From IMG/VR virus record IMGVR_UViG_3300046804_003055, positions 1-58,669 of that record: a stretch of 58,669 nucleotides of DNA; one strand, written 5' to 3'. This document shows positions 1 to 29,300 of the stretch, piece after piece (within the stretch, counting starts at the first letter, position 1; the number at the start of each line of letters is the position of its first letter). This stretch comes from a virus. Taxonomy: Duplodnaviria > Caudoviricetes. The notes below the pieces were generated by a model that ran no database searches, had not been told where the DNA came from, and saw only the letters and a list, made by a program, of their open reading frames with translations. Position numbers and translations under genes: made by a program.

Positions 1-184
1 CAGCCGCTACCCAAGCTTCTGCTAAGTCTTGAAAAGTCCTTTCTCCTGCTCGAACTTGCGCACTGATCGCACGTAATACATCAGCAACAGCACTACTGCC
101 TCGTGCAGTAGCTCTGAGTACAGTTACCCAAAGAGTTTCTTCATTTAGAATACGCGATTCTGATATTATTTCATAAACTTTCAT
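1..184 (-). CDS. Hypothetical late/virion protein, N-terminal part only (MKVYEIISESRILNEETLW...), truncated by the window edge
   Basis: Translated by hand: ATG at 184, frame open to position 1, TAAATA box at 191-196 just upstream. Not in the ORF track. Confidence 0.75.
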   Translation of the reverse strand, partial: MKVYEIISESRILNEETLWVTVLRATARGSSAVADVLRAISAQVRAGERTFQDLAEAWVAA

Positions 185-190
185 AGTTAA

Positions 191-196
191 TATTTA
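191..196 (-). promoter_or_regulatory. Putative late promoter (TAAATA, T4 TATAAATA-like)
   Basis: GATAAATA 6 nt upstream of the ATG at 184. The same box recurs before structural genes, and the phage encodes a gp55-like sigma factor. Confidence 0.6.
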
Positions 197-199
197 TCG

Positions 200-611
200 A
201 TGATGAACTACGTTCATCAGTTCTTCGCTACCGCTCGAACTTTTCTCAACAACACGAAGTGCTTGTAAATATTATCCAGATTGTTCAGTCACACTTAGCC
301 CAGATTGGGCAAAGAACATTATCCGAGTTGAACATGTCACACAGCAGTAGAGCATTACAGAGGCGGTTGTCCGGTACCTCGAGCCCAGTCTTTTTACAGC
401 GGCGGTTTAGGTAAATCTGCTATCACTTGCCTAAACGTGCAGGTTTTCCCTGCTCATTTTGCCTTTTTGTCTATTCAAACAACCAAACAGCAAGGTCTTT
501 GCCATCGTCATCCTAATGGGTAGTGGTTGAGCACTCTTAACGGCGAGAGATTTCCTTCCCTGCGACCCGAGGTCCAGGTTTTGGGGCACACGAAGTTAGC
601 CTGTGCCAGCT
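200..611 (-). ncRNA. Candidate large structured ncRNA, family not recognised
   Basis: ORF-free gap in an otherwise gene-dense genome. GC counted at 36/60 (541-600) and 33/60 (361-420) versus an AT-rich background. About ten stems: 585-607, 559-578, 534-549, 481-528, 439-453, 405-436, 360-380, 294-314, 282-287/329-334, 249-266, 201-219. Several G-U pairs work only on the minus strand. Confidence 0.7.
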
Positions 612-1055
612 TTAACCGTTGGATTTTGCCTGTGCTTGTTCTATTAATCGCTGTCTTAGTATAGCAGATCCGCCTACACGCACATTAATAATGCCATTGT
701 AGTATTCATCTGACTCTAAAACACGCCGTTCAAATTGTTCTCTTGCCTCTAGGTATGACATTTCTGCCTTACTTTTGCAATAGTATAATATTTCTCGGGT
801 GAATTTTTCTGGACCTTGTGCCTGGACGTCTGCGTTTAACCTATCAGAAGAACCCCAATAGTCGCGCCAATCGCTTTCTACAGTACTTCTTCTTTTGAGC
901 TTTTTGCCTTTGAGTGGTGGTTTTGTGCGTTTAAACTGTGCTAGTTTTTTGCCTATATATTTTTGTCCAGTTGTGAGATTGGTTATTAAGTAAACAAATC
1001 CAATATAACCTTCAGGTATTTCTTCAACTGTTTGTGTTTGATATGTCCATAGCAT
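612..1055 (-). CDS. GIY-YIG (Seg-like) endonuclease-family protein, catalytic domain only
   Basis: GFVYLITN...KYIG, DYWGSS, FTREIL, conserved Glu (LEAREQ) and YYN; Lys/Arg-rich insert KRTKPPLKGKKLKRR. Confidence 0.75.
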   Translation of the reverse strand: MLWTYQTQTVEEIPEGYIGFVYLITNLTTGQKYIGKKLAQFKRTKPPLKGKKLKRRSTVESDWRDYWGSSDRLNADVQAQGPEKFTREILYYCKSKAEMSYLEAREQFERRVLESDEYYNGIINVRVGGSAILRQRLIEQAQAKSNG

Positions 1056-1058
1056 CTA

Positions 1059-1322
1059 CTATGTATCGTTAGCCTCTTGCTTGGCCTGTCTCTTTTGAGC
1101 TTGCCTACGTGCTTCTTTTTCAGCCAAAATTGCTTCTTTTTCTATTGCCCATTCACGCACAGCCACACGCCGCGCTGAACAGATGCGCCTAATTTCACTT
1201 AAACTTTGCCTTAATCTTATAGCAGATGCTTTGGTGGCTTCATTCATCCACTGCTGGTTGGCCGCAAAATAGCGTCTAAATTCAGCCATCAGTTGATCGT
1301 GAAGCTCTTCATCTTGATGCAT
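1059..1322 (-). CDS. Small helical protein resembling the histone H1-like Hc1 N-terminal domain
   Basis: TKASAIRLRQSLSEIRRICSARR resembles the NKAAxxRxRxxxxxLxKxxxxxR pattern of Hc1-like proteins. Confidence 0.45.
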   Translation of the reverse strand: MHQDEELHDQLMAEFRRYFAANQQWMNEATKASAIRLRQSLSEIRRICSARRVAVREWAIEKEAILAEKEARRQAQKRQAKQEANDT

Positions 1323-1713
1323 CTATAACTCTCTGCCTTAATTCGCTGGTGCTAAACGAATGCCGCCTTTTATTAAAATAAAATTCCATGGGAATATCGT
1401 GTCCTGTAAATTCTCGGCTTTGATATTCTTCGCCTAATATCCTAACATCAATAGGAAAAGAAAGCAACACATCTCGAAGTTCTTTTTCTGTAGCATAGAC
1501 CACAATTTCGTCCACAAACTTGCAGGCCTGTAGTTGTACATAGCGTTCAAAAATACTTTGTACAGGTTTATTTTTAGTGTCAGGCCTGTCAATGGTTGGA
1601 TCAGTTTGTAGGCCAACTATCAAATAATCGCATTGGGCTCGTGCTTCTTTAAGCATCATAATATGCCCTGCGTGAAACAGATCAAATGTTGAACAAGTAA
1701 ATCCTGTTCTCAT
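1309..1713 (-). CDS. Cytidylyltransferase (TagD/glycerol-3-phosphate CTase-like)
   Basis: TFDLFHAGH (HxGH), LIVGLQTD and C-terminal RRHSFSTSELR. Confidence 0.85.
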   Translation of the reverse strand: MRTGFTCSTFDLFHAGHIMMLKEARAQCDYLIVGLQTDPTIDRPDTKNKPVQSIFERYVQLQACKFVDEIVVYATEKELRDVLLSFPIDVRILGEEYQSREFTGHDIPMEFYFNKRRHSFSTSELRQRVIDASR

Positions 1714-13800: not shown

Positions 13801-14363
13801 TAGCCGGAGCTAATATGACTCAACCATTGCCCCCAAGCGCAACAGAATTAAGTAATACCTTATCTAGTACATTAAATCCAATTAAATCAATAAGTGATGA
13901 AATAGTTTATCATCCTGTTAGCTATACTTTACTATTTGGTTCTTTAGCAGACACAAGTTTGCAGGCAAATTTTAATGTTATTATTAATAGCAATTCTGTA
14001 GTTTCAGAGTCTGATGTTAAGGCAAGAATTTTAACTGCAATAAATTCTTTTTTTGCTTTAGAAAACTGGAATTTTGGAGACACATTTTATTTTAGTGAAT
14101 TAGCTACCTATGTTATCAATGAACTAACTCCGGATATTACTGGATTTGTAATTGTACCAGTACAAACAGACAAGTATTTTGGTAGTTTATTTCAAATAGA
14201 ATGTTCTAGTAATAAAATTTTTATAAGTTGTGCCACTACCGATAACATAAAAATAGTTTCAGGCTTTACCTCGGATAATTTAAAAACAGTAGCAGGGTCG
14301 TCTGTTTTGTCTGTTGTTTCACAAACTATTTCTAGCTCGACAAACGGAGGCTTGAATGGCTAA
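10890..14363 (+). CDS. Baseplate wedge subunit (gp6-like)
   Basis: DFENLR, ENFLELAERRESVLRLAKLIGY, FGDGTFGKLP and QNRMITGEDY motifs. Confidence 0.85.
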   Translation: MSSTDRQNNLLVSEDWQKIYQTYKNANFQSYDFENLRRIMVDYLRTNYSEDFNDYIESSEYLALIDLIAYIGQSIAFRVDLNARENFLELAERRESVLRLAKLIGYNASRNKPSQGLLKINTISTTETVLDTNGRNLAGQFITWNDPSNVNWYDQFIKNINAALLTTNQFGNPIDSAKIYNVPTGQYRFNSSNSNVPIYSFSKTISGRAMNFEVTSTTFKGESYIYEEAPKLGNSMACIFKDDGYGAGSAGTGFFFNFIQGTLNQGTFTITQPSSNQTIDIDSDNVNNNDIWLYQLDTNTGAENTLWTKVPALAGNNIIYNSINTNTTTVYSVTTRTNDNITLNFGDGTFGKLPVGTFKIYYRISNGLSYTINPSDIVNVSISIPYVSAKGQNETLSVSLNLPSSVQNSSQTESNTTIKNNAPAVYYTQNRMITGEDYNISPLSSSTSVAKIKAINRSSSGISRYFDLVDPTGKYSSTNLYGSDGVIYKDEYTNKFTFSYQTKNDIEGEIVNTIIPLLSSAELKNLYYSYFKNYVTSSLNISWYVKSSDSNTSTGYVGDIVTERPYQVGSYTNTILKYCTPGSLIKFIAPTGYYFNLKNKNLLTQGSQGVSNSSSYIWAEVVSIIDDGTSNGTGVLSNGLGPISLAQNIPAGAIVSQIIPKLTTVLSSSIIATMIDLISENKFFGLRYDADNQLWKIIFESNLNLINNFNLGNQGSTSNLQTDSSWFILFTTDNINYTVTTRNLRYVFESAKEISFYFENDQKIYDVVSGSIVNDNINILSINQNYASNNGTDSFTNDISWKVSSKFIGLDGYTDPKKLILTFTDVDNNGTVDNPQIFDDILAESSGAANSKFIVQQKYNISVGQQDYKYVPNNYLTGPVIILTTDPSDTSTYTDGQYFYITSTNVVKKYNSTTGELVPNLDYKVYKGRDNLKFQYTHSADYDSRIDPGSSNIIDLYVLTSSYDTNFRQWLAGANMTQPLPPSATELSNTLSSTLNPIKSISDEIVYHPVSYTLLFGSLADTSLQANFNVIINSNSVVSESDVKARILTAINSFFALENWNFGDTFYFSELATYVINELTPDITGFVIVPVQTDKYFGSLFQIECSSNKIFISCATTDNIKIVSGFTSDNLKTVAGSSVLSVVSQTISSSTNGGLNG

Positions 14364-17300
14364 AAAAAATACTCCTTTTGGAAATAATTCTACTACAGTA
14401 AACCTATTACCAAAATTTTACCAAACTGCAACTAATTCAAAATTTTTAAATGCAACAATAGAGCAGTTATATCAGCCAGGAGCAACTACTAAAATAAATG
14501 GGTACGTAGGAAGACAAAATGCAAAGGCTGCTACCGCCTCTGACATCTTTATACAAGCCCAGTCTAATGATAGGCAAAATTATCAACTAGAGCCTGGCGT
14601 TTCAATAAACGACGATTTAAACAATATTAAATTTTATAAAGATTATATTGATTATATTAATCAAATAAATGTCTTTGGCGGCAACACATTAAATCATAGT
14701 AGACTTAACGAACAAGAATTCTATAGTTGGGATCCGCACATTGATTGGGATAAATTTGTAAACTTTCAAAATTACTATTGGCTTCCATACGGGCCTGATA
14801 CTATTGATTTAGGTCTAGTTCCTTACTTAGTAAGTACATATTCTGTCAATCTTCAACCTACTAGCGATGCTAATGTTTATGTTTTTTCCCCAGACGGTAA
14901 ATCTTATAACCCTATTTTAAAGTTATATAAAGGTATAACTTATAAATTTGTAATTGATAGTCCTAATAATCCTTTTAGTATAAAAACATTTAGATCAATT
15001 GGCGAATCTAATAGATATTCAACAAAAGATTTAATTAATGGTATTGAAAAAGGCACTTTGACCTTTACAGTACCCTTTGATGCACCAAGTTTGTTATTCT
15101 ACCAAAGCGAAACAGACATAAATGTTGGCGGCGCAATCGAAATTTCAACATTAGACGAAAGTTTTATTTTTGATGTAGAAAAAGATTTAATAGGAAAAAG
15201 AAATTTTACTTTATCAAATGGTCAATCTTTAAGTAACGGAATGAAAATTTCTTTTGCAAATAATGTTCTTCCTAAAACTTATTCTACTGGAGAATATTAT
15301 GTAGAAGGTGTGGGGTCAGCTATAAAATTAATTAAGGCCGCTATTACAAATGTGGCTGGTTCTTATGCCTTAACTCAAACAACAAAGTTTGATTTTACAC
15401 CGTTTGATACAGAACCATTTGGTGATAGTATCGGATATCCTGCTGATAAAGATTACTTTACAATTAATAGAGCAAGTAAAGATGCTAACCCGTGGAGTAG
15501 ATATAATCGCTGGTTCCATAAAGATGTTATAATAGCCAGTGCATTATACAATAATGCTGAAACTAATATCGATCAATTGCAAAGAGCGGTTAGACCTATT
15601 ATAGAATTTGAAGCAGATCTTAAACTTTATAACTTTGGAAATATTTTATTAGCAGATATTGATGTAATTGATACTTATACGACTGATGTTTTTTCAATAA
15701 TTGAGGGGTCAAAAGGCTATAATATTGATGGTATTAATTTGTCTGATGGACATTTGGTACTTTTTACTGCTGATACAGACGAATTAGTAAAAAACAAAAT
15801 TTACAAAGTAAGTTTTGTAAACATTCTTGGCTATAGACAAATACATTTAGAAGAATATGCTACCCCTACTATCAATAATACTGTTATTGTTAGACAGGGA
15901 GTTTTAAATCAAGGCAAAGGTTATTGGTTTGACGGCTCTACATGGTTATATGCACAACAAAAAACTACAGTAAATCAACCACCTAAATTTGATATTGTCG
16001 ATGATAATGGTATTAGTTTTAGTAATTTTGACACTTATCCTAGTAGCACGTTTACTGGTACAACACTTTTTGAATATAAAAAAGGTAACAGCATTATTGA
16101 TCCTGTTTTAGGATTTTCTTTAGCCTATCAAAACGTTAACAATATAGGAGACATTGTTTTTAATTTTACTCTAGAAACAGATTCTTTTAATTATAAGATT
16201 AATAATGCAATTGTTACTAAAAATATCAATGTAGGTTATTTGTCAAAATTAACTATAAGCGATAATATAGAATTTGTTAATGGGTGGACAACATCTTCAA
16301 TTACTGATTACCAAGCAGCAGTAAGAATTTACAAAAATATTTTAGGATCAAGTATACTTTTAGATGCATATGATGATGCAAATAAATTAGATGATATAGA
16401 TATTAAAGTTTATATTAACGGTAACAGAATTAATAGAGACCAGTGGACGCTAACAGATACTAGTCCTTATAAAACAATCCAATTAAGTTCTAATATTCAA
16501 ATATCTACTAATGACATTATTACAGTTAGAAGTTTTTCATCACAACCAATAAATGACAATGCATTTTATGAAATTCCTATTAACTTACAAAATAATCCTT
16601 TAAATGGAACAATTGGAGATTTTACTTTAGGAGAAGTTATTAATCATGTAGACAGCATTATTGATAACATTAGCAATTTAGGACCTTCATATAAAAATAT
16701 TTTACCAATTGATTTTATAGGAACATTTCCTGGATCAAGTAATCTAAGAGATTGCGGGAACTTAACATCTTACGGCACAAAATTTGTACAACATAGCGGG
16801 CCATCTAGTCTTAGTTTATATCATGTAACTAACGAAAATAATAATATTGTAAAAGCATTAGAGCAGGCAAATGCAGATTACAATAATTTTAAAAGGCAAT
16901 TTATTAATACAGTATCTTCATTAGGGTATGATGCTGATGCATATAATATTGTTAACAAAGTATTCCAACAAATAACATTAAACAAGCCCTCAACAGCTCC
17001 ATATTATTTTAGTGATATGGTTCCTTTTGGAGCGTCTGTAAAAACTAATCTTAATGTGGCTGATTATAGGATAAAAAAATATCCATTAACTAGCGTTTTT
17101 ACTTTAGATGAGCTTTCAAATAAAGCAGTTGGTGTATACTTAAATGGTAATCAATTATTATATAAAAAGGATTATATTTTTGATGAATTGGGATTTATTG
17201 AAATTTTATGCAATTTAAATAATGATGATGTTATTACAACCTATGAGTATGAAAGTACAGACGGATGTTTTGTACCAGCAACACCTACTAAATTAGGTCT

Positions 17301-20300
17301 ATGGCCAATATACGAACCAAAAATTTATTTAGATACAAGTTTAATTACACCTCGCTGGATGATTCAAGGACATGATGGTAGTCAAGTACTAGCATACGGC
17401 TCTTATAGTGAAGGTGATATTCCTGACTATAGAGATAACGTTATTTTAGAACTTGAAAAAAGGATTTTTAATAATATAAAAGTTCAATATGACCCTACAA
17501 TTTTTAACATTTACGATATTTTTCCAAGATACGATCGTCCATCAAAATATACACTAGAAGAATTCAACGAAGTTTTAGCCCCAGCATTTTATAAATGGAC
17601 AGAATTAGTAGGAGCAAATGGTAGTAAACCTTTAAATTATGATATTAATAATTCTTTCACATTTAACTATACAGGACATGAACTACCTAATAAATCTACT
17701 TCATTAGGCTATTGGCGAGGAATTTATAGGTACGTTTTTGATACCGACCGTCCTAATCTATGTCCTTGGGAGATGCTAGGATTAACAATTGAACCTTCTT
17801 GGTGGACTGAGGTTTATGGCGAAGCTCCTTATACTAATAATAATATTCCTATGTGGAAAGATATTTCTGAAGGAATTATTAGAGAGCCTGGAAAACAAAT
17901 AGTTTACTTAGATGACTATAAAAAACCATTTTTATTAAATCATATTCCTGTTGACGAATATGGAAATTTATTAAGTCCGCTATCTTGCGGAATTACAAAA
18001 GGAACTATAACACCTAGCGTTAACGGAAAATATGTGTTTGGTGATGTTGCTCCTGTAGAGGCTGCATGGAGAAGAAGTAGCCATTTTCCGTTTAGTATTA
18101 TTACTGCTTGCTCTATATTAATGCCATCAAAAGTATTTGGTGTTGCTATAGATAGGTCTAGAATAGTTAGAAATAAAGCAAATCAGTTAATCTATAAAGA
18201 TACTAGCTTAAGAATTACTCCTAATTCCATCCAATTACCAAGCGTTTATACAAGTTCTGTAAGAGTACAAACAGCAGGAATTATTAATTACATAGTTGAT
18301 TTAATTTTTAATTATATTTTTAGCAATAATCTTAAATCATACGAAGTTTATGCAAACGACCTAAGTACAATGACAGTCCAACTTGGTTATAGAACTGGAT
18401 CTTTTACAAGTAAAGATCAATTTTCTTTACTGCTTGAATCAAAAACTCCTCTAAGTTCAGGAAATTTATTTGTCCCCCAAGAAGATTTTACTGTTGTATT
18501 AAAAAAATCAAATCCTGTACGTACAATTAACTATAGCGGAATTATAATTACTAAAATTTCGACAGGTTATGAAGTTAAAGGTTATAGTAAAACTCATCCA
18601 TTTTTTAATTATTATTCCTATATTAAAACTTCAGGAGAAATTAATATTGGCGGTATATCGTCAACATTTGTTAATTGGAGCCCTAATAGTACGTACCATG
18701 TGGGTGTAATTGTGTTTTTTGATGGTAATTACTATAGAGCTAAACAAACAGTTACATCCGGCCAAAGTTTTAATTTATCAGAATTTTCTTATATACCAGC
18801 CTTACCTGTAACTGGCGGCCGGACTGTACAAAATAGAATTTCCTGGGATAGAAAAAATATAATAAAGGTTCCTTACGGACACGAATTTACAACAGTCCAA
18901 GAAGTTTATGATTTTATCATCGGCTACGGCGAATATTTAAAAGACCAAGGCTTGATATTTGATGACTATAATAATAATTTAGGCAATGTTTCAAATTGGA
19001 ACACTAGCGCCAAAGAATTTTTATTTTGGACGACTCAAAGTTGGCATGCCGGCCAAGAAAAATGGAGCGACTGGCTTTCTAACCAACCAATTTTATATGG
19101 TACTGTTGTACGATATAATGGAGATTATTATAGTGCTAAATCTAATCTAGCGCCATCGGCTATATTTGACTATGACAATTATATTAAATTAGACGGTTTA
19201 AGTAATGTCGGTAATAGTGTAATAAGTCTAAGTCCCGCCGCCTATAAAATTTCTGTTGTTTCTGATTATGCTGTAGTAGATAATATAAGCAATCCTTTTA
19301 ATACCTATGAATTTTATAAGGTAAATGGAAATCCAATACCAGTTGCTAGTATCAGTATTAGTAAAATAGATAATGTAACTAGTTTTAGTTTAATAGATGA
19401 CGATGGTATCTATAGCGCCAGTTTTTATCTAGTTCAACATGAGCATGTTGTAGTCATCAAAAATAAATCTATCTTTAATGATATAATTTATAATTTAGAA
19501 AGCGGCTATAGAAGAGACAGGATTAAAGTATCCGGCTACATAACTTCAGATTGGAATGGAAGTTTTGATGTTCCTGGTTTTGTTGTAGACCAAGCAGTTA
19601 TAGAAGTATGGAAAGCATGGACCGATTATAATGTGGGCGATGTAGTTAATTTCCAAGGTAATTATTATACTGCTAATGTTTTTATTGCAGGGTCTACCGA
19701 GTTTGAAATTATAAACTGGTCAAAATTAAATTATAGGCCTGTCCCAACACTAATACCAAACTGGACTAATTTAGCTACGCAATTTACTGATTTTTATAAT
19801 TTAGATAGTGACGGTTTGAATGGCAATCAACAAAAAATTGCTCAGCATTTAATAGGCTATCAACGACGTTCTTATTTAAAAAATATACTTCAAGATAACA
19901 TTAGTGAATTTAAATTTTATCAGGGTATGATAAGAGATAAAGGTACTGAAAATGTATTAACTAATTTATTTGGAGTTTTAGGAGCAGATGGTAAAGATAG
20001 CTTAACTTTTTACGAAGAGTGGGCGTTAAGGACTGGAAGATATGGTGCTACATCTTCTTATGAGGAAATAGAATTTGTAATACCAGAAACAAATAAAAAC
20101 TATAATCCTTTAGGTGTAATTTTAACCAATACAGTTGATACTACTCTACCAGCATTTTTATTACAACAAACACCAAATGATATCTATTTAAAACCTCTTG
20201 ACTACAGCTCAACACCTTTTATAACTACTTCTTTGCCAAAAACACTTTTGCGTGATGCAGGATATGTTAATAATGATGATGTAAAAGTATCTTTAGGGAC

Positions 20301-23300
20301 ACTTGGTGAAATAACTACCTATAACCCTAAAGATTTTGTTGAAGGAGATTATGCGTATTGTGCATTTGTTGGAACAAGCTGGAATGTTTACAAATATATA
20401 AATTCAAATTTATCTGTATCTTCAGTTACATATTTGTCTAATATTTTAACTATTACCTTTACTACTTTGTCAGGATTAAAAGCCGGCGACTATATTGGAA
20501 TTTATTCAATTGATGAAATTACAAATTTTTATAAAGTTGCATCTGCTACTTTAAATTCAATTACAATTAGTACCGTCATTAAAGGATGGGTTAATCCTTT
20601 TACTCAAACTAATGATGTTAAAATTTTTAAATTTATTCCTTATAGAATTGCTAATATAGATAATTTAGATTCAGTTGATCTAAAAACTTTAACAAAAAAT
20701 AGCCTTGTATGGGCAGATAGTACCTATTATGGATCTTGGGGAGTTTATAAAAATTCTAATGTATATACAGAAGAAGTTGTTGAAAACCCTATACGCCAAC
20801 CAAATTTATTATTAGGTACAGCAATAGCTGTAAGCAAAGATTCAAAATTTTTAGCATCGTCGACAAGCCAAGGCAGAATAATTGTTTATAACAAAGCAGG
20901 CGAAAGTTTGCCATGGACTTATACACAACTTATTGAAAGACCAGCCATTTCTTCAGATAATAGTTACTTAATTTCTGCAACTTTAACTGCTAGTTCTACA
21001 GTAATTTATTCATCTGCGGCAAGCAATAGTCATTTAGGAGGCAAAGTTGTTGGTACCGGTATTCGAGAAAATACCTATGTAATTTCAGTTTCTCCGGGAG
21101 TTTCTTTACAATTAAGTTTATCGGCTGCTAGTTCTGGTTTAAATTCTTTAACCATTATAACAAATGTTAATACATCAACTACTGGTTCTTCTTTAGCTCT
21201 ATCAGAAGATGGAACATGGCTTGCTGTAGGATCTCCATTTGCAAATTATGCTACTAGTAACTATGTTGGTAATTATAATAATAGTACAACTTATGCTGCT
21301 AACAGTATAGTAACATTGTCAACTACTATTGATGGCGTTACTGTAACAACTGCATACAAAGCATCCTCTCAAACTTCCGGTACTTTAGTCGTCGATTCAA
21401 CAACAAGATTGCCAGTTGGAAATATACCATGGACATACATGCCTTATATACCTGTTGATACTACTGGAACTAATTCTACTCTTACAAACCAGGGAGCAGT
21501 TTCGATTTACAACCGTGATATTAATGGTGTTTATAATTTAGTAGATACAATCTTAAGCCCAAACCCGGCCGATAATGAAAAATTTGGTTATCAAATATAC
21601 TTTACTTCCGGGCTGACCACTAATATTTCTGAATCTTTATATATTTCGGCCATAGGCCATAGTTCCAATGCAGGACGAGTTTATAAGTTAGATTATGGTA
21701 ATATTACTAAAGTTTCTACCTCATATAATCCTATAGGTAGCTCTGGAACTACGATTAAAGTTCAATCAACTTCAGGAATATCAAAAGGTATGACTGTTGT
21801 AGGAACAGGTTTTAGTTCTGGACAAACAGTCAAAACTGTTGTAGATACTAAAACCCTAATTTTAAGTTTAGCACCAGATTCGACTCCAACCGGCACTTTA
21901 AATTTTGGTATTATAGGGTGGGGATTTTTTGATTTTTATGCAAATTATGTAGGAGATTCAAATACACAAAATTTTGGAACCTCAATAGTTGCATACAATA
22001 ATAAATTAGCGATATCTGGTTTATCATCAGTTACAAATCAAGGCACTGCCGGATATGTCAACATATACACAAATCTAAAATATGGTTCTGCTAAACCATC
22101 ACCTCAACGATTATTTAGAGACTTATCAAGTTTAGATCCTCAATTGTCGGGAAAAATCTCATTTGGCAAATCAATTGATTTTTCTCCTAACGGATTGTAT
22201 TTGGTTGTTTCGGATGTTTATTATGATAAAGATAGTTCTCCCCTCGCCGGAAAAGTAGCAATTTATTCTCAACAAACTAATGATCAATTTATCTTACTAC
22301 AAGAATTGGTTAATCATCATGTAACTCCTAGTGGAAATTTTGGTAGCCACGTATCATTTTTAACAAATAATACAGTTATAGTGTATAGTATAACGGCAGC
22401 AAATAGATTTGAACAAATATTTGATAATGGAGATACAACATTTGATAATGATAGAACATTTATTTTAGAACCATCTAATCCTAATGGCAGAGTTGACATA
22501 TATGATAGATACAATACTACTTGGGTCTATAGTGAATCATTAGATGGAACATTTGACGAACCAGTAGGTTACGGCTCATCAATAGCTGCTTCTAATAATT
22601 GTGTATTAGTGGGATCTCCAAACGCCCTAGACAAAAATATTCAATCTGGTAAAATATATTACTATACTAAATTAGCTGATATATTTTCTTGGCAATTAAT
22701 TGATTATGGACAACAAGTACCAGATGTAACTAAAATTAAAAAAGCATTTTTGTATAACAACCAATCTAATAATTTATTAACTTATATAGATGTTATAGAT
22801 CCTTTACAAGGAAAAATTGCTGGCCCAGCAGAAGAAGAAATTAAGTATAAAACTTTTTATGACCCAGCCAAATATTCAAATAGTACACATACAAACCTAC
22901 TAGATGAAAAATCTTTTTGGACAGATAAACAAGTAGGTTTATTGTGGTGGGATTTAAGAAATGCTAAATTTTTAAACAATTATTCTTCTAATTATGTTTA
23001 CAGAACTAGTTTATGGAATACACTTGCTCCAAGTGCAAGTATAGACATTTACGAATGGGTTGAAACTAATTTATTACCATCTAAATGGGATGCTTTAGCA
23101 GACACACCAACAGGATTAGCGCAAAATATAAGTGGTACATCATTATATGGTGATGATGTTTATAGTGTAAGAAAAACATATGATAATATATCAAAAAGTT
23201 ACAAAAGCATTTATTACTATTGGGTAAAAAATAAAAAAATTGTTCCTTCTAATATTAGCGGAAGACATATATCAGCCAACGACGTTTCTTTACTAATATC

Positions 23301-26300
23301 AAATCCAAGAGGCCAAGGTTATGTATGTGCTGCATTAACTGGAAATAATTCTTTTAATCTAATTAATGTTTCTTCTTACCTTTCAGATTTGAATACAATA
23401 TTTTCTTTAGAATATTGGACTATAGATAAAACTGATCAAAACATTCATACCCAATGGAAAATTATTAGCAATGATGCGTCAGTAACTTTACCTAATTTTA
23501 TTATTGAAAAATGGATAGATAGTTTATGCGGTTACGATGCTGTTGGTAGAAGTGTACCAGATTTAACCCAACCTGCAAAATTAAGGTATGGAATTGAGAA
23601 TAGACCTCGTCAAAGCATGTTTATTAATAGGATAGAGGCTTTAAAACAAATTATTGAATATGTAAATGATATTACAAAAGTAAATCAAATTTCAGAAATT
23701 AAAAATTTAAGCACACTAGAATCTTACGAAACTGAACCAAATCAAATTTTAGGTCTCTATGACGACGTTATTGACACAGATTTAGAACTAAGATTTACAT
23801 CGGCTACTTCGTTTAAACAACCAAATCTAAATATTCAAGTTAGTAATGACGGAAAGATTGTTGGCATTACGATAAATTATGCTGGACAAGGTTATAAAAA
23901 TGCACCATATATTGATGTTGTAGGCACCGGAACCGGCGCCGTTGTTCAGAGTGTTATTGATAGTCTAGGAAGAATTGTAGGAGTCACTATAGTTGAAGCC
24001 GGTCAGGGATATGACAGTAATACATACTGCACTATTAGGAATTATTCAGCTTTAGTTCATACTGATTTAAGTTCTTCTAATTCTTGGGCTATCTATTCAT
24101 ATAATCCAAATACAACTACCTGGACTAGGATTAGGACTCAGGCTTACGATGTTAGAAAATATTGGGAAAAAATTGATTGGTACGCCACTGGATATAATCA
24201 ATTTACACTGGCAGATTTTGTAGTAGACACTACTGTAGATTTAAATTCTATAAATGATGAAATAGGTAATATAGTAAAAGTAAAAACAGACAGCAAAGGC
24301 CAGTGGACACTATTAGAAAAAATATCAAACAGCTCTTCAGTGTTTAATGATTGGACACAAATTTATAAAGTAATTGGTATAGAAAATGGTACAATTCAAT
24401 TTAAATCTAATTTGTATAATTTTGTAGGCACCGATGTTGGATATGATTCTGAAACATATGGCAGTTCTGATTATGATATTGTAGCATCTAAAGAATTGCG
24501 TTTAATTCTAAAATCTTTAAACAATGACATTTTAACTAATGATTTAAAACAAGAATTTTTAAATTTATTTTTTATAAGTGTAAAATATTCCTTAAGTGAG
24601 CAATTATATGTAGATTGGATTTTTAAAACTAGTTTTGTAAAAGCAAATTACAACTTAGGAATGTTAGATCAGCCAGTAAATTATCCAATAGATAACTTAA
24701 AAGATTTTGAAGATTATATTAGTGAAGTAAAACCTTATAGAACAAAAATTAGAGAATATATAAGTCAATATCAAACCCTAGATAATAATCAAACCGCAGT
24801 TTCAGATTTTGATATGCCTCCAGTTTATGAAAACGGGTCGATAAAATTAGTTAATTCATTTGTCACTGCCAATGACACAATACGTGTACTTGATCCTGCA
24901 ATAACAACAGCACCGTGGAAAAATTGGTATGACAATGTAGGTTTTAAAATAATTGAAATTAAATTAATTGACGGCGGCTCTGGTTATGTTTACGAACCTT
25001 CTGTTGTTATCAATAGTAAAAGCGGAAAAGGTGCAAAAGCTCGTGCGTTTATTTCTAATGGTAAAGTTAGAAATATATTAATTTTAGACTATGGAACAAA
25101 TTATTTAAGTACCCCTATAATTTCTATTGTAGGAGGTTTATCTGCATCCGGCATAGCTGCAAAAGCAGTTGCTATTATCGGTGATGGAGTTGTAAGATCT
25201 AATTTATTAGGAATAAAATTTGATAGAATAACAAAAAATTATTTTATAACACAAAATAAACAAATAGAAACATTTGTTGGATCTGGATCATTATTACAAT
25301 TTGCGTTAAAGTGGCCTCCTGATGTAAGGGTAGGTCAATCTAGTGTTACGGTCAACGGTCAACCTGTACTAAGAGAAAATTATTCGTTTACAATTGTTAC
25401 AACAAAAGATTCTTACACTAAACATACAGGTTTATTAGTATTATCTTCTGCACCGCCAAAAAATTCTCAAATTGTAGTTTCTTATCAAATTGATCAAAGT
25501 GTTTTTACCGCAGTTGACAGAATCCAATATTATTATAATCCAGAGTCTGGAAGTTTTGGTAAAGACTTATCTCAATTAATGCTTGGTGTAGACTATGGCG
25601 GAGTAGTGGTAAGTGGATTATCTTTTTCCACCCCAACCGGATATGATTCAGAACCCTTTATGGCAAGTAAATGGGATGCATTTGATTCAACAAATAATAA
25701 TTTTACTGTTATTTTATCTGCAAATACTAGAACAATTACATTGCCGTTTACCCCATTATCTTCTGATGTGTTTAATATCTATAAAGAAGTGGTTGCCGAA
25801 CAACTAATAAATGGTGTAGATGGAATAACTACAAGTTTTAATTATAGTCTAAGTGTATATGATCCTGAAGTTTATGTGTCAAAAACATCAAACACTGGAC
25901 AATACTTAAATCGAACATTCTCAAGTGTAAGTTTCGTTGGCTCAATTATTACAATGGTAATAAATGATACTACCGGGATAGTAAAAGGCATGGGTATAGT
26001 TGGCACTGGTTTTGGCAGATCTCAACTAGTAGACACAATAATAAATTCTACAACAGTAACTCTTACAGCATTACCAAATGTTTCTTTAGTTTCTATTAAC
26101 CAACCATTAGTTTTTACATTTAATTATTCAGGAAGTTCTACCCTTATTGTTAGCAGCACTCAAGGAGTGTATGCAGGTGATACAGTTTCTTCAACTACAA
26201 ATACATTTACCTACGGAACAAAAGTAAAATCAGTAGTTAATTCTACAACAATTATATTAGATAATATTTTATATAATAATATTCCTTTAAATTCAACAGT

Positions 26301-29300
26301 TAAGTTTCAAAGAAAACTTACAAATTTAATTGATGTAACTATATCACCTAATGGCGTAATTAAATTTACAAATGCGCCAACCGCCGGAAGTAATATAAGA
26401 ATTACAGGCAGAACTAATCCGTTAAGATTAGACGACGAATACTATGATACAGTAAGACAAAAGAATAAAGATGCAATTTTAGCTAGCCCAACAGGATATA
26501 GTGTTGATAGCATTACAGTATTAGAGCCCGGTATATATACAAGAATACCAAAAATTCTAATTCAAAATTCTCCAATTGCAGGAAATAGTCCTGAATATAC
26601 TGCTACAGTTTCTACTATTTCAGCCCAAGCAGTAGGGGCTATTATTAGTAGTTACGGAACTGGATACGCAGTTGGGGATACATTAACCGTAGCTAACCAA
26701 GCTACTTTTAAAATAACTGCTCTTAATACAAATACAGGAACTGTTATATCTACATCTGGTGCTGACGTTACTTTATCTTCAACACAAGGTATGGCAGTAG
26801 GTGATTCGTTTGTGATTGCTGGAAACGGAACAGGATTGTTACAAGCAACTTCTGTCTATTACGTTTCAAGTGTTTCAAATAATACAATTCATCTTGCAAA
26901 TAGTCTTGCTAATGCTCTTATAGATAATTTTATTATATTTCCTAATAGTACAGTATCAAATACTACATTTAATTCTGCAAGTTTGATTGGTAGACCAAAA
27001 ACACTAGTTATAGTTACAGCTGGTACCTTTAGTGGCAATTTAACAAATACAGCCCAAGCAACTACAACTAATTCTCTTTATGGAACAGGGTGTACTTTAA
27101 TACTACAATATGGAATTAAAAATATAACAGTATCACAAACCGGTGGTGGCTATATTACTGCACCAAATATTCTTATAGGTACACCTTGGAGTGCAAATTT
27201 ACCAGTTTCTCTAAATGACGATGTAGTTTACCAACATAGACATTATTTGGTTACAGTTGCCGGAACTTTAGATTCAAGTCCTCCGTTACACATAACAGGA
27301 TCAATTGTTTATGGCACTGCTGAGTTAACTTATATAGGTCCAGCAGCAAGTGCTTTTTCAACTCTGTCAATAGGTAAAATTACACTTCCACAATCATTAA
27401 CTGTAAACGACGGAGACACTTTTATTATAAGAAATAGTACTAGTGATGGAAGTTATCAAACTAAAGATTCTGATTATGATACTGCTTTATCGGGCGGCGA
27501 TCTAACATATTCTACTGCGTTAGGTATAGCAGCAGATGATATTATTGTAGATGGTGATGGTTTTGTAACTGCTACTACAAGTCCGGCACCTGAAGAAGTT
27601 GTGCCAGGACAAATTGTAGATTCGTTAGCAGTTAAAGTATTTGACACTCAATCAAGCTCCTCAGCACAAGTTAAAGTAGACAATTACAGTTCTGACGGCG
27701 TAACAACAGGTTATAAAATTAGCCAAACACCAAATAGTAAACAATCTGTTATTGTTAAAGTTGGGGCTGATATTTTAACATACGATGATGATTATACAAT
27801 TGATTATAAAAATAAAACAATTAATTTGAGTGTAGCACCTAGTGCTGGTACTATTATTAGTATTTTTAGTTTAGGTTTTGGCGGAAAAAATATATTAGAT
27901 TTAGATTATTTTATAGGTAATGGCAATACAACCGAGTTTGTTACAAAGGCTACCTGGCAAGATGATATTACAGTACTTGTTTATGTAAATGGTATAGTAT
28001 CATCTCCTCAAGTTTTTAGAACTGACGGTACTTATATAATAGAAAATTCAGTAGGTTTTAGATACGGAGCTCCTCCGGTACAAGGAGATTTAATCAATTA
28101 TGTGATTGTTTCTGGATCATTACCATCGTTTACTATATCTTCTAAAGAACTGATCTATACAAACGGAAGTATATCATACCAATTACAACAACCAATAGGT
28201 AATAATTTACCATTAGATGCAAATATGATTGTACGTAACGGTCAAAATATTTTAACAGCATCAACTAATAGTTATTTTACCATAGGAAAAAACAGATTAA
28301 ATTACACCATTGATAAAACAGTAATTGTACCAGGATCAGTTATTGCATCACAAATTTTTGTATCAGTTGGTGATACACTTTTAACATTTGGTACAGATTA
28401 TGTTTTAAATTTAAATGGGATAACAATTACCATAACAAGAAATATCTATACTCAATATTCTGGAAAAACTTTAGTTATAAGTGTTACACGAGATAATCAA
28501 TATTTTTATAATTCTGTAAACAACACAATTAGATTTTCTCAAAATTATAATGGGGATATTATAGAAGTTATGAGTTTTTATGTTCATGATATATTAGATA
28601 TTCAAAGAACATCATTAACATATAATTCATCTTCTAATTTAACTGCTGATAGTGTTGCTTATTTTGACTATAAAGAAATCGGCCAAGGAACTATTAAGTT
28701 AGATAGGGCAGTCTTAGATGATAGTTATGTTTGGGTTACAAAAAATAATAAATTGCTTGTGCCTGGGATAGATTATAGATTAGTTGATAATAATATCTTA
28801 CAACTTAATGGCACTGTAGTTAACAATGATGTAATTTCTTTAATGACATTTGATTCAAATTTAACAAACGGATCAAGAAATATTGCGTATATGCAATTTA
28901 AAGATATGTTAAACAGGACAACATATAAGAGATTAAGTGCAAAAAAACAAACTTATTTGATTCAAGATTTAAACTATAATGACCGATACATTCGTGTTAA
29001 CGACACTAGTAATTTAACTTTACCTAACAAGCAATTAAACAAACCTGGTGTGGTTGAAATTCAGGGAGAAAGGATAGAGTATTTTGAAGTACGCCAAAAT
29101 ACCCTAAGCCAACTAAGGAGAGGAACACTTGGCACTGGCGTAAGAAATATCTATGTTTCAGGATCTTATGTACAAGACATTGGTGCTAGCGAAACTATTC
29201 CTTATGTTGATGATACTAAGATAAATCAAATTATTTCTGATGGAACAACAACAATTAATTTAGATTATATTCCTAAATCAGTTAATGAAATTGAAGTTTT

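What the first reader, a model, noticed from the sequence alone, without database searches (positions are those of the whole stretch)
200..611. Unannotated large, multi-helix ncRNA candidate
Seen on the minus strand, 5' to 3': GGCACA/UGUGCC (607-585); CCUG-GACC/GGUC-G-CAGG (578-559); CUCU/AGAG (549-534); AACCA/UGGUU (528-481) closing a junction containing AUGGCAA/UUGCUGU with G-U pairs; GCAGG-GAAAA-CCUGC (453-439); GUUUAGG/CCUAAAC (436-405); GAGG-UAC-CGG-ACAA-CCG-CCUC (380-360); GCCCA/UGGGC (within 314-294); then three terminal hairpins, including the perfect UGAUGAAC/GUUCAUCA (219-201). A-rich linkers separate the stems, and local GC reaches 55-60%. I do not recognise tRNA, tmRNA, RNase P or intron signatures. 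It could be new, or a member of a large phage RNA class such as GOLLD or ROOL.
Basis: partly seen in the sequence, partly recalled or inferred. Interest (0 to 1): 0.8.

Follow-up and report, generated by a model that had tools for sequence, protein, structure and literature searches.

The report
Large phage RNA extending Polynucleobacter-1
The region encodes a real structured RNA of about 410 bases in a giant freshwater phage; its first third is a catalogued motif, and the rest, with two pseudoknots and two always-identical short elements, appears undescribed.

Summary
Window 611-201 (minus strand) is a conserved, highly structured RNA. Its 5' 135 nt match Rfam RF01718 (Polynucleobacter-1) over the whole model at 108 bits (cut-off 37). 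The remaining ~275 nt match no Rfam family, but they are conserved and covary in more than 150 IMG/VR phage contigs.

On 49 non-redundant sequences, a model of 87 pairs in 18 helices, two of them pseudoknots, is 96% paired. Compensatory changes occur at 56 pairs. Folding energy alone is not significant (z = -1.2).

The 5' and 3' parts always occur together. The RNA is single-copy in T4-like phage genomes of up to 355 kb. It ends an early-type gene block (late sigma factor, SbcD-like, SbcC-like, small GIY-YIG protein). An ATAAATA late-promoter-like motif and variable genes follow it.

Two direct repeats about 50 nt apart carry a 7-nt core. The core differs between phages (at least 8 versions) but is identical in both copies of every RNA examined. 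No complementary partner was found in cis.

Best reading: an independent trans-acting RNA. It is probably neither a leader of the downstream gene nor a cofactor of the nuclease. Function is unknown. It is not GOLLD, ROOL, tmRNA, RNase P or an intron.

The parts
201..611 (-). Whole structured RNA (about 411 nt), from the base after the GIY-YIG stop codon to the last hairpin
   Evidence: Conserved and covarying across 49 non-redundant relatives. Coordinates.
477..611 (-). 5' domain, equal to Rfam RF01718 Polynucleobacter-1 (helices P1-P5)
   Evidence: cmscan 108 bits against a gathering score of 37, model positions 1-141 of 141.
586..606 (-). P1 hairpin GCACA/UGUGC
   Evidence: 5 pairs, 3 with compensatory change, 100% paired.
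559..578 (-). P2 hairpin CCUGGACC/GGUCGCAGG, followed by the invariant GGGA.GGAAA
   Evidence: 8 pairs, 97% paired, 2 with compensatory change. Invariant columns.
534..547 (-). P3 hairpin CUC/GAG
   Evidence: 3 pairs, 95% paired.
480..529 (-). P4 (529-524 with 485-480), enclosing P4a (523-509) and P5 (506-486)
   Evidence: P4 has 6 pairs, 4 compensatory. P5 has 6 pairs, 4 compensatory. The P4a loop and P5 loop switch together between two versions.
439..453 (-). P6 hairpin GCAGG-GAAAA-CCUGC
   Evidence: All 3 counted pairs show compensatory change.
405..436 (-). P7 long hairpin; its loop (423-417) forms pseudoknot PK1
   Evidence: All 12 pairs show compensatory change, 94% paired.
341..347 (-). 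3' strand of pseudoknot PK1 (CUGCUGU), pairing with the P7 loop AUAGCAG at 423-417
   Evidence: 7 pairs, 6 compensatory, 99.4% paired.
396..400 (-). 5' strand of pseudoknot PK2 (GCUGU), pairing with ACAAC (370-366) in the loop of P9
   Evidence: 5 pairs, 3 compensatory, 94.7% paired.
350..386 (-). P8 (GGGC 386-383 with GCUC 353-350), enclosing P9 (GAGGU 380-376 with GCCUC 364-360) and the invariant GGUAC..ACCGCC
   Evidence: P8 has 4 pairs, 3 compensatory. P9 has 5 pairs, 2 compensatory. The top mutual-information pair of the whole alignment lies in P8.
317..328 (-). Repeat copy A: ACUC + core GGAUAAU + G
   Evidence: Core identical to copy B in all RNAs examined. Unpaired in the consensus structure.
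294..314 (-). P11 hairpin CUUUGCCC/GGGCUAAG, lying between the two repeats
   Evidence: 7 pairs, 91% paired, 2 compensatory.
270..281 (-). Repeat copy B: AUCU + core GGAUAAU + A
   Evidence: As for copy A. Columns 379/440 read GG 28 and AA 21 of 49; columns 380/441 read GG 39, CC 8, AA 2.
251..264 (-). P13 hairpin with a UUCG-type loop
   Evidence: 106 of 136 relatives have a hairpin of at least 4 bp here. The loop is CUUCG in 87 and CUACG in 9, with 58 distinct stem sequences.
222..239 (-). P14 hairpin with a conserved GAGCG..AGCGAAG interior capped by a GNRA-type loop
   Evidence: Pairs 522-524/558-560 are all compensatory. Loop variants are read from the alignment.
201..219 (-). P15 terminal hairpin UGAUGAAC/GUUCAUCA
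   Evidence: 8 pairs, 5 compensatory, 92% paired. It is not a consensus intrinsic terminator by the simple scan.
191..197 (-). ATAAATA, a late-promoter-like motif between the RNA and the next gene
   Evidence: All 5 plus-strand copies in the window lie 25-30 nt upstream of the starts of ORFs of at least 200 aa. It is present after the RNA in 71 of 89 entries.
2..184 (-). Start of the downstream variable gene (MKVYEIISE...), running off the window
   Evidence: Its family differs between loci (F9, F14, F22, F31, F33), and none has a PHROG match.
612..1055 (-). Upstream 147-aa GIY-YIG protein (SegE-type nuclease domain only); its stop codon abuts the RNA
   Evidence: Pfam PF19835, E = 1.1e-35. 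phrog_447, E = 2.3e-38.

Best explanation
Window 611-201 (minus strand) is the full-length form of the Polynucleobacter-1 RNA. It is a single-copy, compactly folded non-coding RNA gene of about 410 nt, found in a clade of uncultured freshwater T4-like phages with genomes of up to about 355 kb.

Shown:
- The 5' 135 nt are a member of RF01718.
- The next ~275 nt are equally conserved and covarying, with about ten further helices and two pseudoknots.
- The two parts never occur apart in the sample tested.
- The RNA sits at the 3' end of a same-strand block of early-type genes: late sigma factor, SbcD-like, SbcC-like, an 87-aa protein, and a GIY-YIG protein.
- An ATAAATA late-promoter-like motif, or convergent genes, follow it.

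Inferred:
- It is transcribed with, or just after, that block.
- It ends at the terminal hairpins.
- It acts in trans as a folded RNA.

Proposed mechanism (my odds about 0.3): the scaffold displays two single-stranded copies of one phage-specific 7-nt sequence. These base-pair with two copies of the same complementary sequence in a host or phage nucleic acid, or with a two-fold symmetric target. The RNA would then work as a sequence-specific decoy, sponge or guide.

The confidence given (0.55) is for the reading 'independent trans-acting structured RNA'. That it is a real structured RNA and a member of RF01718 I hold at above 0.95.
For: Identity:
- RF01718 at 108 bits over the full model.

Extension:
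- The downstream 275 nt align across 49 non-redundant relatives that are 67-83% identical to the window.
- RNAalifold gives 73 pairs, 43 with compensatory change.
- My 87-pair model is 96.2% paired, with 56 compensatory pairs and 0 of 500 shuffles as good.
- Both pseudoknots are among the strongest mutual-information signals.

One RNA, not two:
- 14 of 14 loci found only through a 3'-module pattern carry a full-length RF01718 match upstream, at 60-111 bits.

Non-coding:
- 574 of 655 indels relative to the window are not multiples of three.
- Every frame contains stop codons.
- ORFs overlapping the region occur in a minority of loci and have shifting boundaries.

Single copy:
- One match in each of 5 large records, two of them 99-100% complete at 345 and 355 kb.

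Not a leader of the downstream gene:
- ATAAATA lies between the RNA and the ORF. In the window all 5 plus-strand copies of this motif precede large ORFs by 25-30 nt.
- The downstream genes belong to at least five unrelated families.
- In 7 loci the RNA is followed directly by convergent genes.

Not dependent on the nuclease:
- The GIY-YIG family occurs in 245 cultured-phage records.
- 3 of 3 such records examined lack RF01718 anywhere and have no large gap after the gene.
- One locus has the RNA without the gene nearby, and one has 1.8 kb inserted between them.

Twin elements:
- The cores are identical in 72 of 72 loci of the first, unbiased set and in 130 of 131 regex-parsed loci overall. The one exception is a mis-anchored regex match.
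- At least 8 core versions exist.
- On a tree built without those columns, the first variable base changes 10 times in each copy, and 7 of 7 independent pairs change the same way, p = 0.016.
- Both copies are unpaired in the consensus structure.
Against: - No transcript evidence exists; no RNA run was available to test expression or ends.
- No promoter-like site for the RNA and no consensus terminator were found in the window, so the transcript boundaries are inferred.
- The trans partner is unknown. Complementary 7-mers are not enriched in flanking phage DNA.
- 11-nt complements are no more frequent in four large phage genomes than a reversed-pattern control.
- Because the two repeats lie about 50 nt apart, recombination between phages could carry both together. 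The number of truly independent concerted changes is therefore lower than the tree count suggests.
- The RNA abuts the GIY-YIG stop codon (0-66 nt) in 82 of 84 loci with upstream sequence. This still allows a functional link.
- Folding energy alone is not significant.
Confidence: 0.55

Rival explanations
1. Cis-regulatory leader or attenuator. The RNA would be the 5' untranslated region of the downstream gene, or a read-through control element between the early block and the late genes. It would control their expression. This is how the motif was classed when first described.
For: The 2010 table rates the motif cis-reg 'y' (probably) and switch '?'. An ORF on the same strand follows in 71 of 89 entries. 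33 of 61 unique N-termini share M-[KR]-h-x-[DEQH]-[ILVF]-[ILV]-x-E, so the downstream genes form a functional class. Early read-through transcripts would carry the RNA in front of that ORF.
Against: The ATAAATA late-promoter-like motif sits between the RNA and the ORF, so late transcripts would lack the RNA. The downstream proteins fall into at least five unrelated families. Seven loci keep the RNA with no same-strand gene after it. No conserved pairing with the start region was found. The paper states that its cis-regulatory calls rest on position upstream of ORFs.
Confidence: 0.12
2. Partner of the adjacent GIY-YIG protein. The 142-147-aa nuclease has no DNA-binding domain. The RNA made from the same transcript would bind it as a guide, targeting scaffold, regulator or inhibitor, or would be the conserved target next to which a homing nuclease gene has settled.
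For: The gene ends 0-66 nt before the RNA, on the same strand, in 82 of 84 loci with upstream sequence. The protein is only a GIY-YIG domain with a lysine-rich insert. Twin identical 7-mers would suit a two-fold symmetric target. T4 likewise has the GIY-YIG gene segB directly upstream of tRNA-Arg and the stable RNAs rnaD and rnaC.
Against: The protein family is present in 245 cultured-phage records. Melnitz (65% identical), S-SRM01 and phiM12 have no RF01718 match in the whole genome and no room for such an RNA after the gene. L063 has the RNA without the gene and L104 has 1.8 kb between them. The adjacency occurs within one conserved gene order, so the 82 loci are not independent observations.
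Confidence: 0.12
3. Self-processing RNA or ribozyme. The conserved junctions would form a catalytic core. The two identical repeats would be equivalent processing sites read by one internal guide, for example to excise or join at the ~50-nt segment holding P11, or to free the RNA from the upstream mRNA.
For: The RNA has the size and complexity typical of ribozymes: two pseudoknots, GNRA and UUCG loops, a block switch between GAAA-with-CUAAG and another loop pair, and invariant single-stranded junctions. One recognition element acting twice would explain the identical sites. The 5' end abuts a stop codon.
Against: No match to any ribozyme or intron family in Rfam, even at E up to 10. No internal sequence complementary to the cores. 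No split gene flanks the RNA. No experimental data.
Confidence: 0.12
4. Not an RNA feature. The conservation would reflect a small protein-coding gene or DNA-level sites such as promoters, protein-binding sites or repeats homogenised by gene conversion.
For: ORFs of 44-73 codons are open in the region. The repeat cores resemble -10 hexamers. Direct repeats can be homogenised by recombination.
Against: 56 of 87 pairs show compensatory changes that keep base pairing. 574 of 655 indels break any reading frame. ORFs of at least 60 aa overlapping the RNA occur in 36 loci (antisense family F5) and 8 loci (sense family F24) of 89, with shifting ends. Fixed differences between the two repeats (ACUC versus AUCU, and the flanking bases) sit within 0-4 nt of the concerted positions, which argues against conversion tracts.
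Confidence: 0.02

Closest known systems
Polynucleobacter-1 RNA motif (Rfam RF01718; Weinberg et al. 2010, Genome Biol 11:R31)
   Same: Window 611-477 matches the whole 141-position model at 108 bits. All modelled helices are present and covary. The habitat fits the paper's 'Burkholderiales, fresh water/estuary'.
   Different: The model stops at the 3' strand of P4. The natural RNA continues for about 275-360 nt with at least ten more helices and two pseudoknots, and the 3' part was never found without the 5' part. The 'probably cis-regulatory' rating is not borne out here. The paper's supplements, which hold the motif's discussion and drawing, could not be seen.
GOLLD and ROOL large phage-associated RNAs
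   Same: Large (over 400 nt), intricately folded RNAs of unknown function encoded in phage genomes. This is resemblance in kind only, and is recalled.
   Different: No Rfam match to either family at E up to 10. No tRNA genes are nearby: none in the 58.7-kb window and none in 142 kb of related loci at the gathering threshold. Whether this RNA forms multimers is untested.
T4 stable RNAs rnaC and rnaD (species 1 and 2) in the tRNA/segB region
   Same: These are phage-encoded stable RNAs of unknown function lying directly downstream of a GIY-YIG endonuclease gene (segB, then tRNA-Arg, rnaD, rnaC), in a region flanked by internal-protein genes.
   Different: They are 139 and 119 nt, adjacent to tRNAs, and one ends in a tRNA-like arm. 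I saw no sequence resemblance on reading them and ran no formal comparison.
Guide RNAs encoded beside their nuclease (omega RNAs of IscB/TnpB, formerly the HEARO motif)
   Same: A large structured RNA immediately next to a small nuclease gene on the same strand, with short phage-specific sequence elements that could confer specificity.
   Different: The nuclease here is a GIY-YIG domain whose family occurs widely without the RNA. The variable elements are internal, duplicated and only 7 nt long. No target was found.

Membership tests
Rfam RF01718 Polynucleobacter-1 | Covariance-model score at or above the curated gathering score (37 bits) | tested here: met
   108 bits, E = 1.7e-22. The same match appears in the own-genome search.
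Rfam RF01718 Polynucleobacter-1 | Full-length match with all modelled helices | tested here: met
   Model positions 1-141 of 141, not truncated. P1-P5 are 95-100% paired in 49 relatives.
Rfam RF01718 Polynucleobacter-1 | Cis-regulatory position in the 5' UTR of the downstream gene, as rated in the 2010 paper | tested here: not met
   A late-promoter-like motif separates the RNA from the ORF. The downstream families are unrelated, and 7 loci have no same-strand downstream gene. This is an interpretation in the paper, not a membership criterion of the model.
GOLLD / ROOL large RNAs | Match to the Rfam covariance models | tested here: not met
   No hit in bases 1-1400 at E up to 10, and none in 14 related loci at the gathering threshold.
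Group I / group II introns | Rfam match, and a host gene split into exons | tested here: not met
   No Rfam hit. The flanks are a complete GIY-YIG ORF with its own stop codon and a separate ORF with its own start.
tRNA / tmRNA / RNase P RNA | Detection by ARAGORN or the Rfam models | tested here: not met
   ARAGORN found 0 genes in the window. No Rfam hit.
Nuclease guide RNA (omega-RNA-like) | Obligate co-occurrence of the nuclease family with the RNA | tested here: not met
   3 of 3 cultured phages carrying the GIY-YIG homologue lack the RNA. 245 cultured-phage records carry the protein, while blastn found no cultured phage carrying the RNA.
Nuclease guide RNA (omega-RNA-like) | A variable segment complementary to a target | tested here: inconclusive
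   Twin variable 7-mers exist, but no complementary site is enriched in phage DNA. Host genomes were not testable.
GIY-YIG nuclease, SegE type (Pfam PF19835), for the upstream gene | Pfam score above the curated cut-off | tested here: met
   123 bits against a cut-off of 25, covering profile positions 1-123 of 123.
T4-type internal (capsid-targeted) proteins, for the downstream gene | N-terminal capsid-targeting sequence ending in a protease site | tested here: inconclusive
   T4 IPII and IPIII begin MKTYQEFIAE. 33 of 61 unique downstream N-termini fit M-[KR]-h-x-[DEQH]-[ILVF]-[ILV]-x-E, one residue shorter than in T4. No family match exists, and cleavage or packaging cannot be tested with these tools.

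The most novel reading that the evidence does not exclude
The RNA would be a new class of programmable phage RNA. A rigid pseudoknotted scaffold presents two copies of a phage-specific 7-nt specificity element. These base-pair with a duplicated or two-fold symmetric nucleic-acid target. The RNA would either act alone as a decoy or ribozyme, or recruit the adjacent GIY-YIG nuclease, which lacks a DNA-binding domain, as an RNA-directed endonuclease.
Probability: 0.12. Interest if true: 0.9.

Novelty: new variant of a known kind. Interest (0 to 1): 0.6.

Why it matters
Large, intricately folded RNAs are rare, and most that have been characterised turned out to be ribozymes or cores of ribonucleoprotein machines. 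This work shows that a 141-nt motif catalogued in 2010 as a probable cis-regulatory element is really the first third of an RNA of about 410-500 nt. That RNA has two pseudoknots, occurs once per genome, and appears in more than 150 contigs of giant freshwater T4-like phages.

The finding has three consequences:
- It changes what should be modelled in Rfam.
- It removes the basis for the cis-regulatory label.
- It adds a candidate to the short list of large phage RNAs of unknown function.

The two elements that vary between phages, yet are always identical within one RNA, give a concrete and testable handle on specificity. Such a handle is unusual for an orphan RNA.

Tried and rejected
Expression and earlier notes
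- Public RNA runs: none was listed for window 150-1100.

Searches for the RNA elsewhere
- blastn of window 150-700 against 50,697 cultured phage records gave no match.
None of the 120 passed the motif filter, so nothing can be said about bacterial genomes or the host.

Searches for a partner of the twin cores
- No 9-mer complement lies within -600 to +1000.
- No column covaries with the cores by standard pairs.
- The only recurrent 7-mer complement, in 36 of 73 loci, is the U-rich 3' strand of P4. It would pair through G-U only and fails for the GC-type cores. Rejected.
- Complementary 7-mers of a phage's own type are not enriched in its flanks.
- The 11-mer complements in four large genomes give 1-4 extra sites per genome, against 2-4 for a reversed-pattern control.

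Structural ideas tested
- Antiparallel pairing of copy A with copy B works for GG cores but loses pairs for AG, GC and GA cores. I checked this by hand; rejected.
- A helix between the segments preceding the two repeats (window 334-329 with 287-282) is perfect in the window. Across 68 distinct versions, however, it is not better than with shuffled partners. It stays tentative and is not listed as a part.
- RNAalifold's long-range pair of columns 2-4 with 347-349 is rejected in favour of P8.

Other readings considered
- Translational bypass as in T4 gene 60 (matched codons followed by a stop codon, a recalled comparison): the cores read as NNA followed by UAA or UGA. But no ORF leads into them, the landing copy is also followed by a stop, and two divergent lineages (L063, L101) lack the stop pattern. 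Rejected.
- Promoter and terminator scan: no minus-strand promoter-like site near 611 and no terminator-like site at 201-219.
Full report
**What is there.** The window is an IMG/VR virus record of 58,669 bp, estimated at 16% complete. On the minus strand, a 147-aa ORF (1055-612) ends with a stop codon directly before base 611. The next ORF starts at 184.

**Rfam identity.** A cmscan of the whole window against Rfam 15 gave one hit: RF01718 Polynucleobacter-1 at 611-477 minus, 108 bits against a gathering score of 37, E = 1.7e-22, covering model positions 1-141 of 141. A permissive scan of bases 1-1400 at E up to 10 added only three chance-level matches. Nothing credible covered 476-200. ARAGORN found no tRNA or tmRNA in the window.

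**Folding energy.** Minimum free energies are not distinctive. For 200-611 minus, z = -1.23, with 10 of 100 shuffles as good. For 200-476 minus, z = -1.79. For the plus strand, z = -0.50.

**Relatives.** Of these, 88 pass a filter for the next conserved element. Reading them showed that conservation does not stop at the end of the Rfam model. It continues for another 280-360 nt, up to two terminal hairpins and an ATAAATA motif. From the 5' end to that motif the RNA measures 412-498 nt.

Seventy complete copies reduce to 49 at 95% identity. These are 67-83% identical to the window and were aligned as A1.

**Structure.**
- RNAalifold predicts 73 pairs, 43 with compensatory change.
- Mutual information with average-product correction exposed two long-range helices that a nested prediction cannot give.
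- PK1 joins the loop of the long hairpin P7 (window 423-417) to 347-341.
- PK2 joins 400-396 to the loop of the GAGGU/GCCUC hairpin (370-366).
- The strongest single signal in the alignment lies in P8 (386-383 with 353-350), which replaces a weak long-range pairing proposed by RNAalifold.

I wrote a structure of 87 pairs in 18 helices and counted it on A1. The results were:

| Measure | Model | Controls |
|---|---|---|
| Cells paired | 96.2% of 4247 | 35-43% with partners slid by 1-3 columns |
| Pairs with change on both sides | 56 | 21-28 in the slid controls |
| Covariation score | 0.429 | 0.177 in shuffles; 0 of 500 reach the observed value |

The structure was derived from the same alignment, which inflates the contrast somewhat. 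Even so, helices such as P7 (12 of 12 pairs compensatory) and PK1 (6 of 7) leave little doubt.

Further marks of a compact fold:
- P13 carries a UUCG-type loop. A hairpin of at least 4 bp is present in 106 of 136 relatives, with loop CUUCG in 87 and 58 different stem sequences.
- P14 is capped by a GNRA-type loop.
- The P4a loop and the P5 loop switch as a block between two versions: GAAA-type with a CUAAG-containing loop, or a UUUACA-type with another loop. I recall that GAAA with CUAAG is the hallmark of a tetraloop-receptor contact. That is a lead, not a test.

**Not coding.** Of 655 indels relative to the window, 574 are not multiples of three. All six frames of the window copy have 3-12 stops. 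ORFs of at least 60 aa overlapping the region occur in 36 of 89 loci (antisense) and 8 of 89 (sense), with shifting ends.

**One RNA, not two.** A second scan used a pattern from the 3' part only.
- It listed 114 stretches, 95 of them new loci.
- 63 of the new loci carry the conserved mid-region motif and 64 the matching upstream repeat.
- None of the 60 with at least 400 nt upstream matched my strict 5' pattern.
- Yet cmscan of 14 of them, chosen for diversity (142 kb), found a full-length RF01718 match upstream in 14 of 14, at 60-111 bits. No other Rfam family was found.
- So the family is broader than either pattern, and the two parts go together.

**Copy number.** In five large records, two of them 345,154 and 354,680 bp and 99-100% complete, the family occurs exactly once.

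**Other genomes.** No cultured phage has the RNA by blastn.

**Context.** Gene families around the RNA are in a conserved order, with names:
1. late-transcription sigma factor
2. SbcD-like nuclease subunit
3. SbcC-like nuclease subunit
4. in some loci, a further small protein
5. an 87-aa basic protein
6. the GIY-YIG protein
7. the RNA
8. variable genes
9. two convergent genes, one a baseplate hub
10. a large gene

Other window genes are virion and baseplate proteins, so this is a T4-like myovirus.

*The GIY-YIG protein.* Its ORF (142-147 aa; Pfam PF19835; phrog_447, which carries the label 'NAD synthetase') ends 0-66 nt before the RNA in 82 of 84 loci with upstream sequence. L104 has 1.8 kb inserted between the two. 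L063 has another gene in its place.

The protein family is not tied to the RNA. tblastn finds it in 245 cultured-phage records, 160 of them Synechococcus phages. The closest is Methylophilales phage Melnitz at 65% identity. Melnitz, S-SRM01 and phiM12 have no RF01718 match anywhere and only 29-148 nt after the gene.

*Downstream.* ATAAATA follows the last hairpin in 71 of 89 entries, and an ORF starts 11-58 nt later. In the window all 5 plus-strand copies of ATAAATA lie 25-30 nt before the starts of ORFs of at least 200 aa, including virion proteins. This fits the T4-type late promoter TATAAATA, a motif I recall rather than tested.

The downstream proteins belong to at least five unrelated families with no PHROG match. 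Among their 61 unique N-termini, 33 fit M-[KR]-h-x-[DEQH]-[ILVF]-[ILV]-x-E. This resembles the MKTYQEFIAE start of T4 internal proteins II and III. A T4 head review describes those proteins as a highly diverse set of defence proteins sharing only a capsid-targeting sequence (PMC3012670, passages read). In seven loci no such gene is present and the RNA is followed directly by the convergent genes.

*A parallel in T4.* T4 shows a loosely similar layout: segB (GIY-YIG), tRNA-Arg, and the stable RNAs rnaD and rnaC, with internal-protein genes on both sides.

**The twin elements.** Two segments about 50 nt apart, each following a GUGAC motif, read ACUC-core-G (window 328-317) and AUCU-core-A (281-270).
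- The 7-nt core is GGAUAAU in the window. In other phages it is AGAUAAU, GCAUAAU, GAAUAAU, GGAUGAU, AGAUGAU, GAAUGAU or GGAUGAA. More divergent lineages carry other shared cores.
- The two copies are identical in 72 of 72 loci of the first set, where the search did not require identity.
- Overall they are identical in 130 of 131 parsed loci. The one exception is a mis-anchored regex match.
- In A1 the first variable column reads G/G 28 and A/A 21. The second reads G/G 39, C/C 8 and A/A 2. No other column covaries with them by standard pairs.
- On a tree built without these columns, the first base changes at least 10 times in each copy, and 7 of 7 independent pairs go the same way, p = 0.016.

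Recombination could move both copies together, so the number of independent events is smaller than the tree count. But the combinations of states seen require repeated concerted change, and no mixed intermediate was seen. Fixed differences between the copies lie within 0-4 nt of the concerted positions. This argues against gene conversion.

No complementary partner exists in cis. Complementary sites are not enriched in phage DNA. The columns are unpaired in the consensus. The simplest reading is that both copies recognise the same sequence in trans. I could not identify that sequence, and this remains the main unexplained observation.

**Interpretation.**
- Established: a real structured RNA, a member of RF01718, about three times longer than the catalogued motif, single-copy, in a clade of giant freshwater T4-like phages.
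- Inferred from position: it is the 3'-terminal product of the early-type gene block and acts in trans.
- The 2010 paper rates the motif RNA 'y', cis-reg 'y', switch '?'. It says such calls rest on position upstream of ORFs (Table 1 and passages read, supplements closed). The late-promoter-like motif, the unrelated downstream genes and the seven loci without a downstream gene speak against that label.
- A functional tie to the GIY-YIG protein is possible, but the protein's wide occurrence without the RNA weakens it.
- A ribozyme cannot be excluded.

**Literature.** A full-text search for 'Polynucleobacter-1' found only the 2010 paper. A search combining GIY-YIG, RNA-guided, noncoding RNA and phage listed four of the five papers it found.

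**Verdict.** The feature is a known family whose true extent and architecture appear undescribed, with an unusual concerted pair of specificity-like elements. Interest is moderate to high for RNA biologists. Function is unresolved.

Noticed in passing
window 14356-29829 (+): A single ORF of 5157 aa, flanked by ORFs of 1157 and 1238 aa, in the structural-gene region. It is unusually large even for a jumbo phage.
   Followed up: no
window 612-1055 (-) and cultured-phage records: The small GIY-YIG protein family (phrog_447) is labelled 'NAD synthetase' in many phage records, yet it matches the SegE GIY-YIG nuclease domain over its whole length. The label looks like a propagated misannotation.
   Followed up: partly
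window 1309-1713 (-): A cytidylyltransferase-like gene (Pfam PF01467) sits between the SbcC-like gene and the 87-aa gene in the window and its close relative L114. Most related loci lack it, so it is a lineage-specific insertion.
   Followed up: no
window 5370, 10865, 33560, 40189, 41720 (+): All five plus-strand ATAAATA motifs lie 25-30 nt upstream of large ORFs. They are likely late promoters of this phage.
   Followed up: partly
window 523-486 (-); alignment A1 columns 99-148: The small hairpin loop and the neighbouring hairpin loop of the Rfam domain switch together between two versions, about half the sequences each. This suggests two interchangeable tertiary contacts.
   Followed up: partly
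window 342-335 and 294-287 (-): The GUGAC motifs preceding the two repeats also change in parallel in a few lineages (AUGG or AUGA in both), so the concerted unit is about 28 nt, not only the 7-nt core.
   Followed up: partly
L063 about 9091 (oriented coordinates), L104: There are two exceptions to the GIY-YIG/RNA adjacency. L063 has a 172-aa unrelated ORF in place of the nuclease gene. L104 has about 1.8 kb, including a 151-aa ORF, inserted between the two.
   Followed up: partly
window 1059-1322 (-): The 87-aa protein with a strongly basic C-terminal half is conserved in the same position in most related loci (family F2). It has no Pfam or PHROG match.
   Followed up: no
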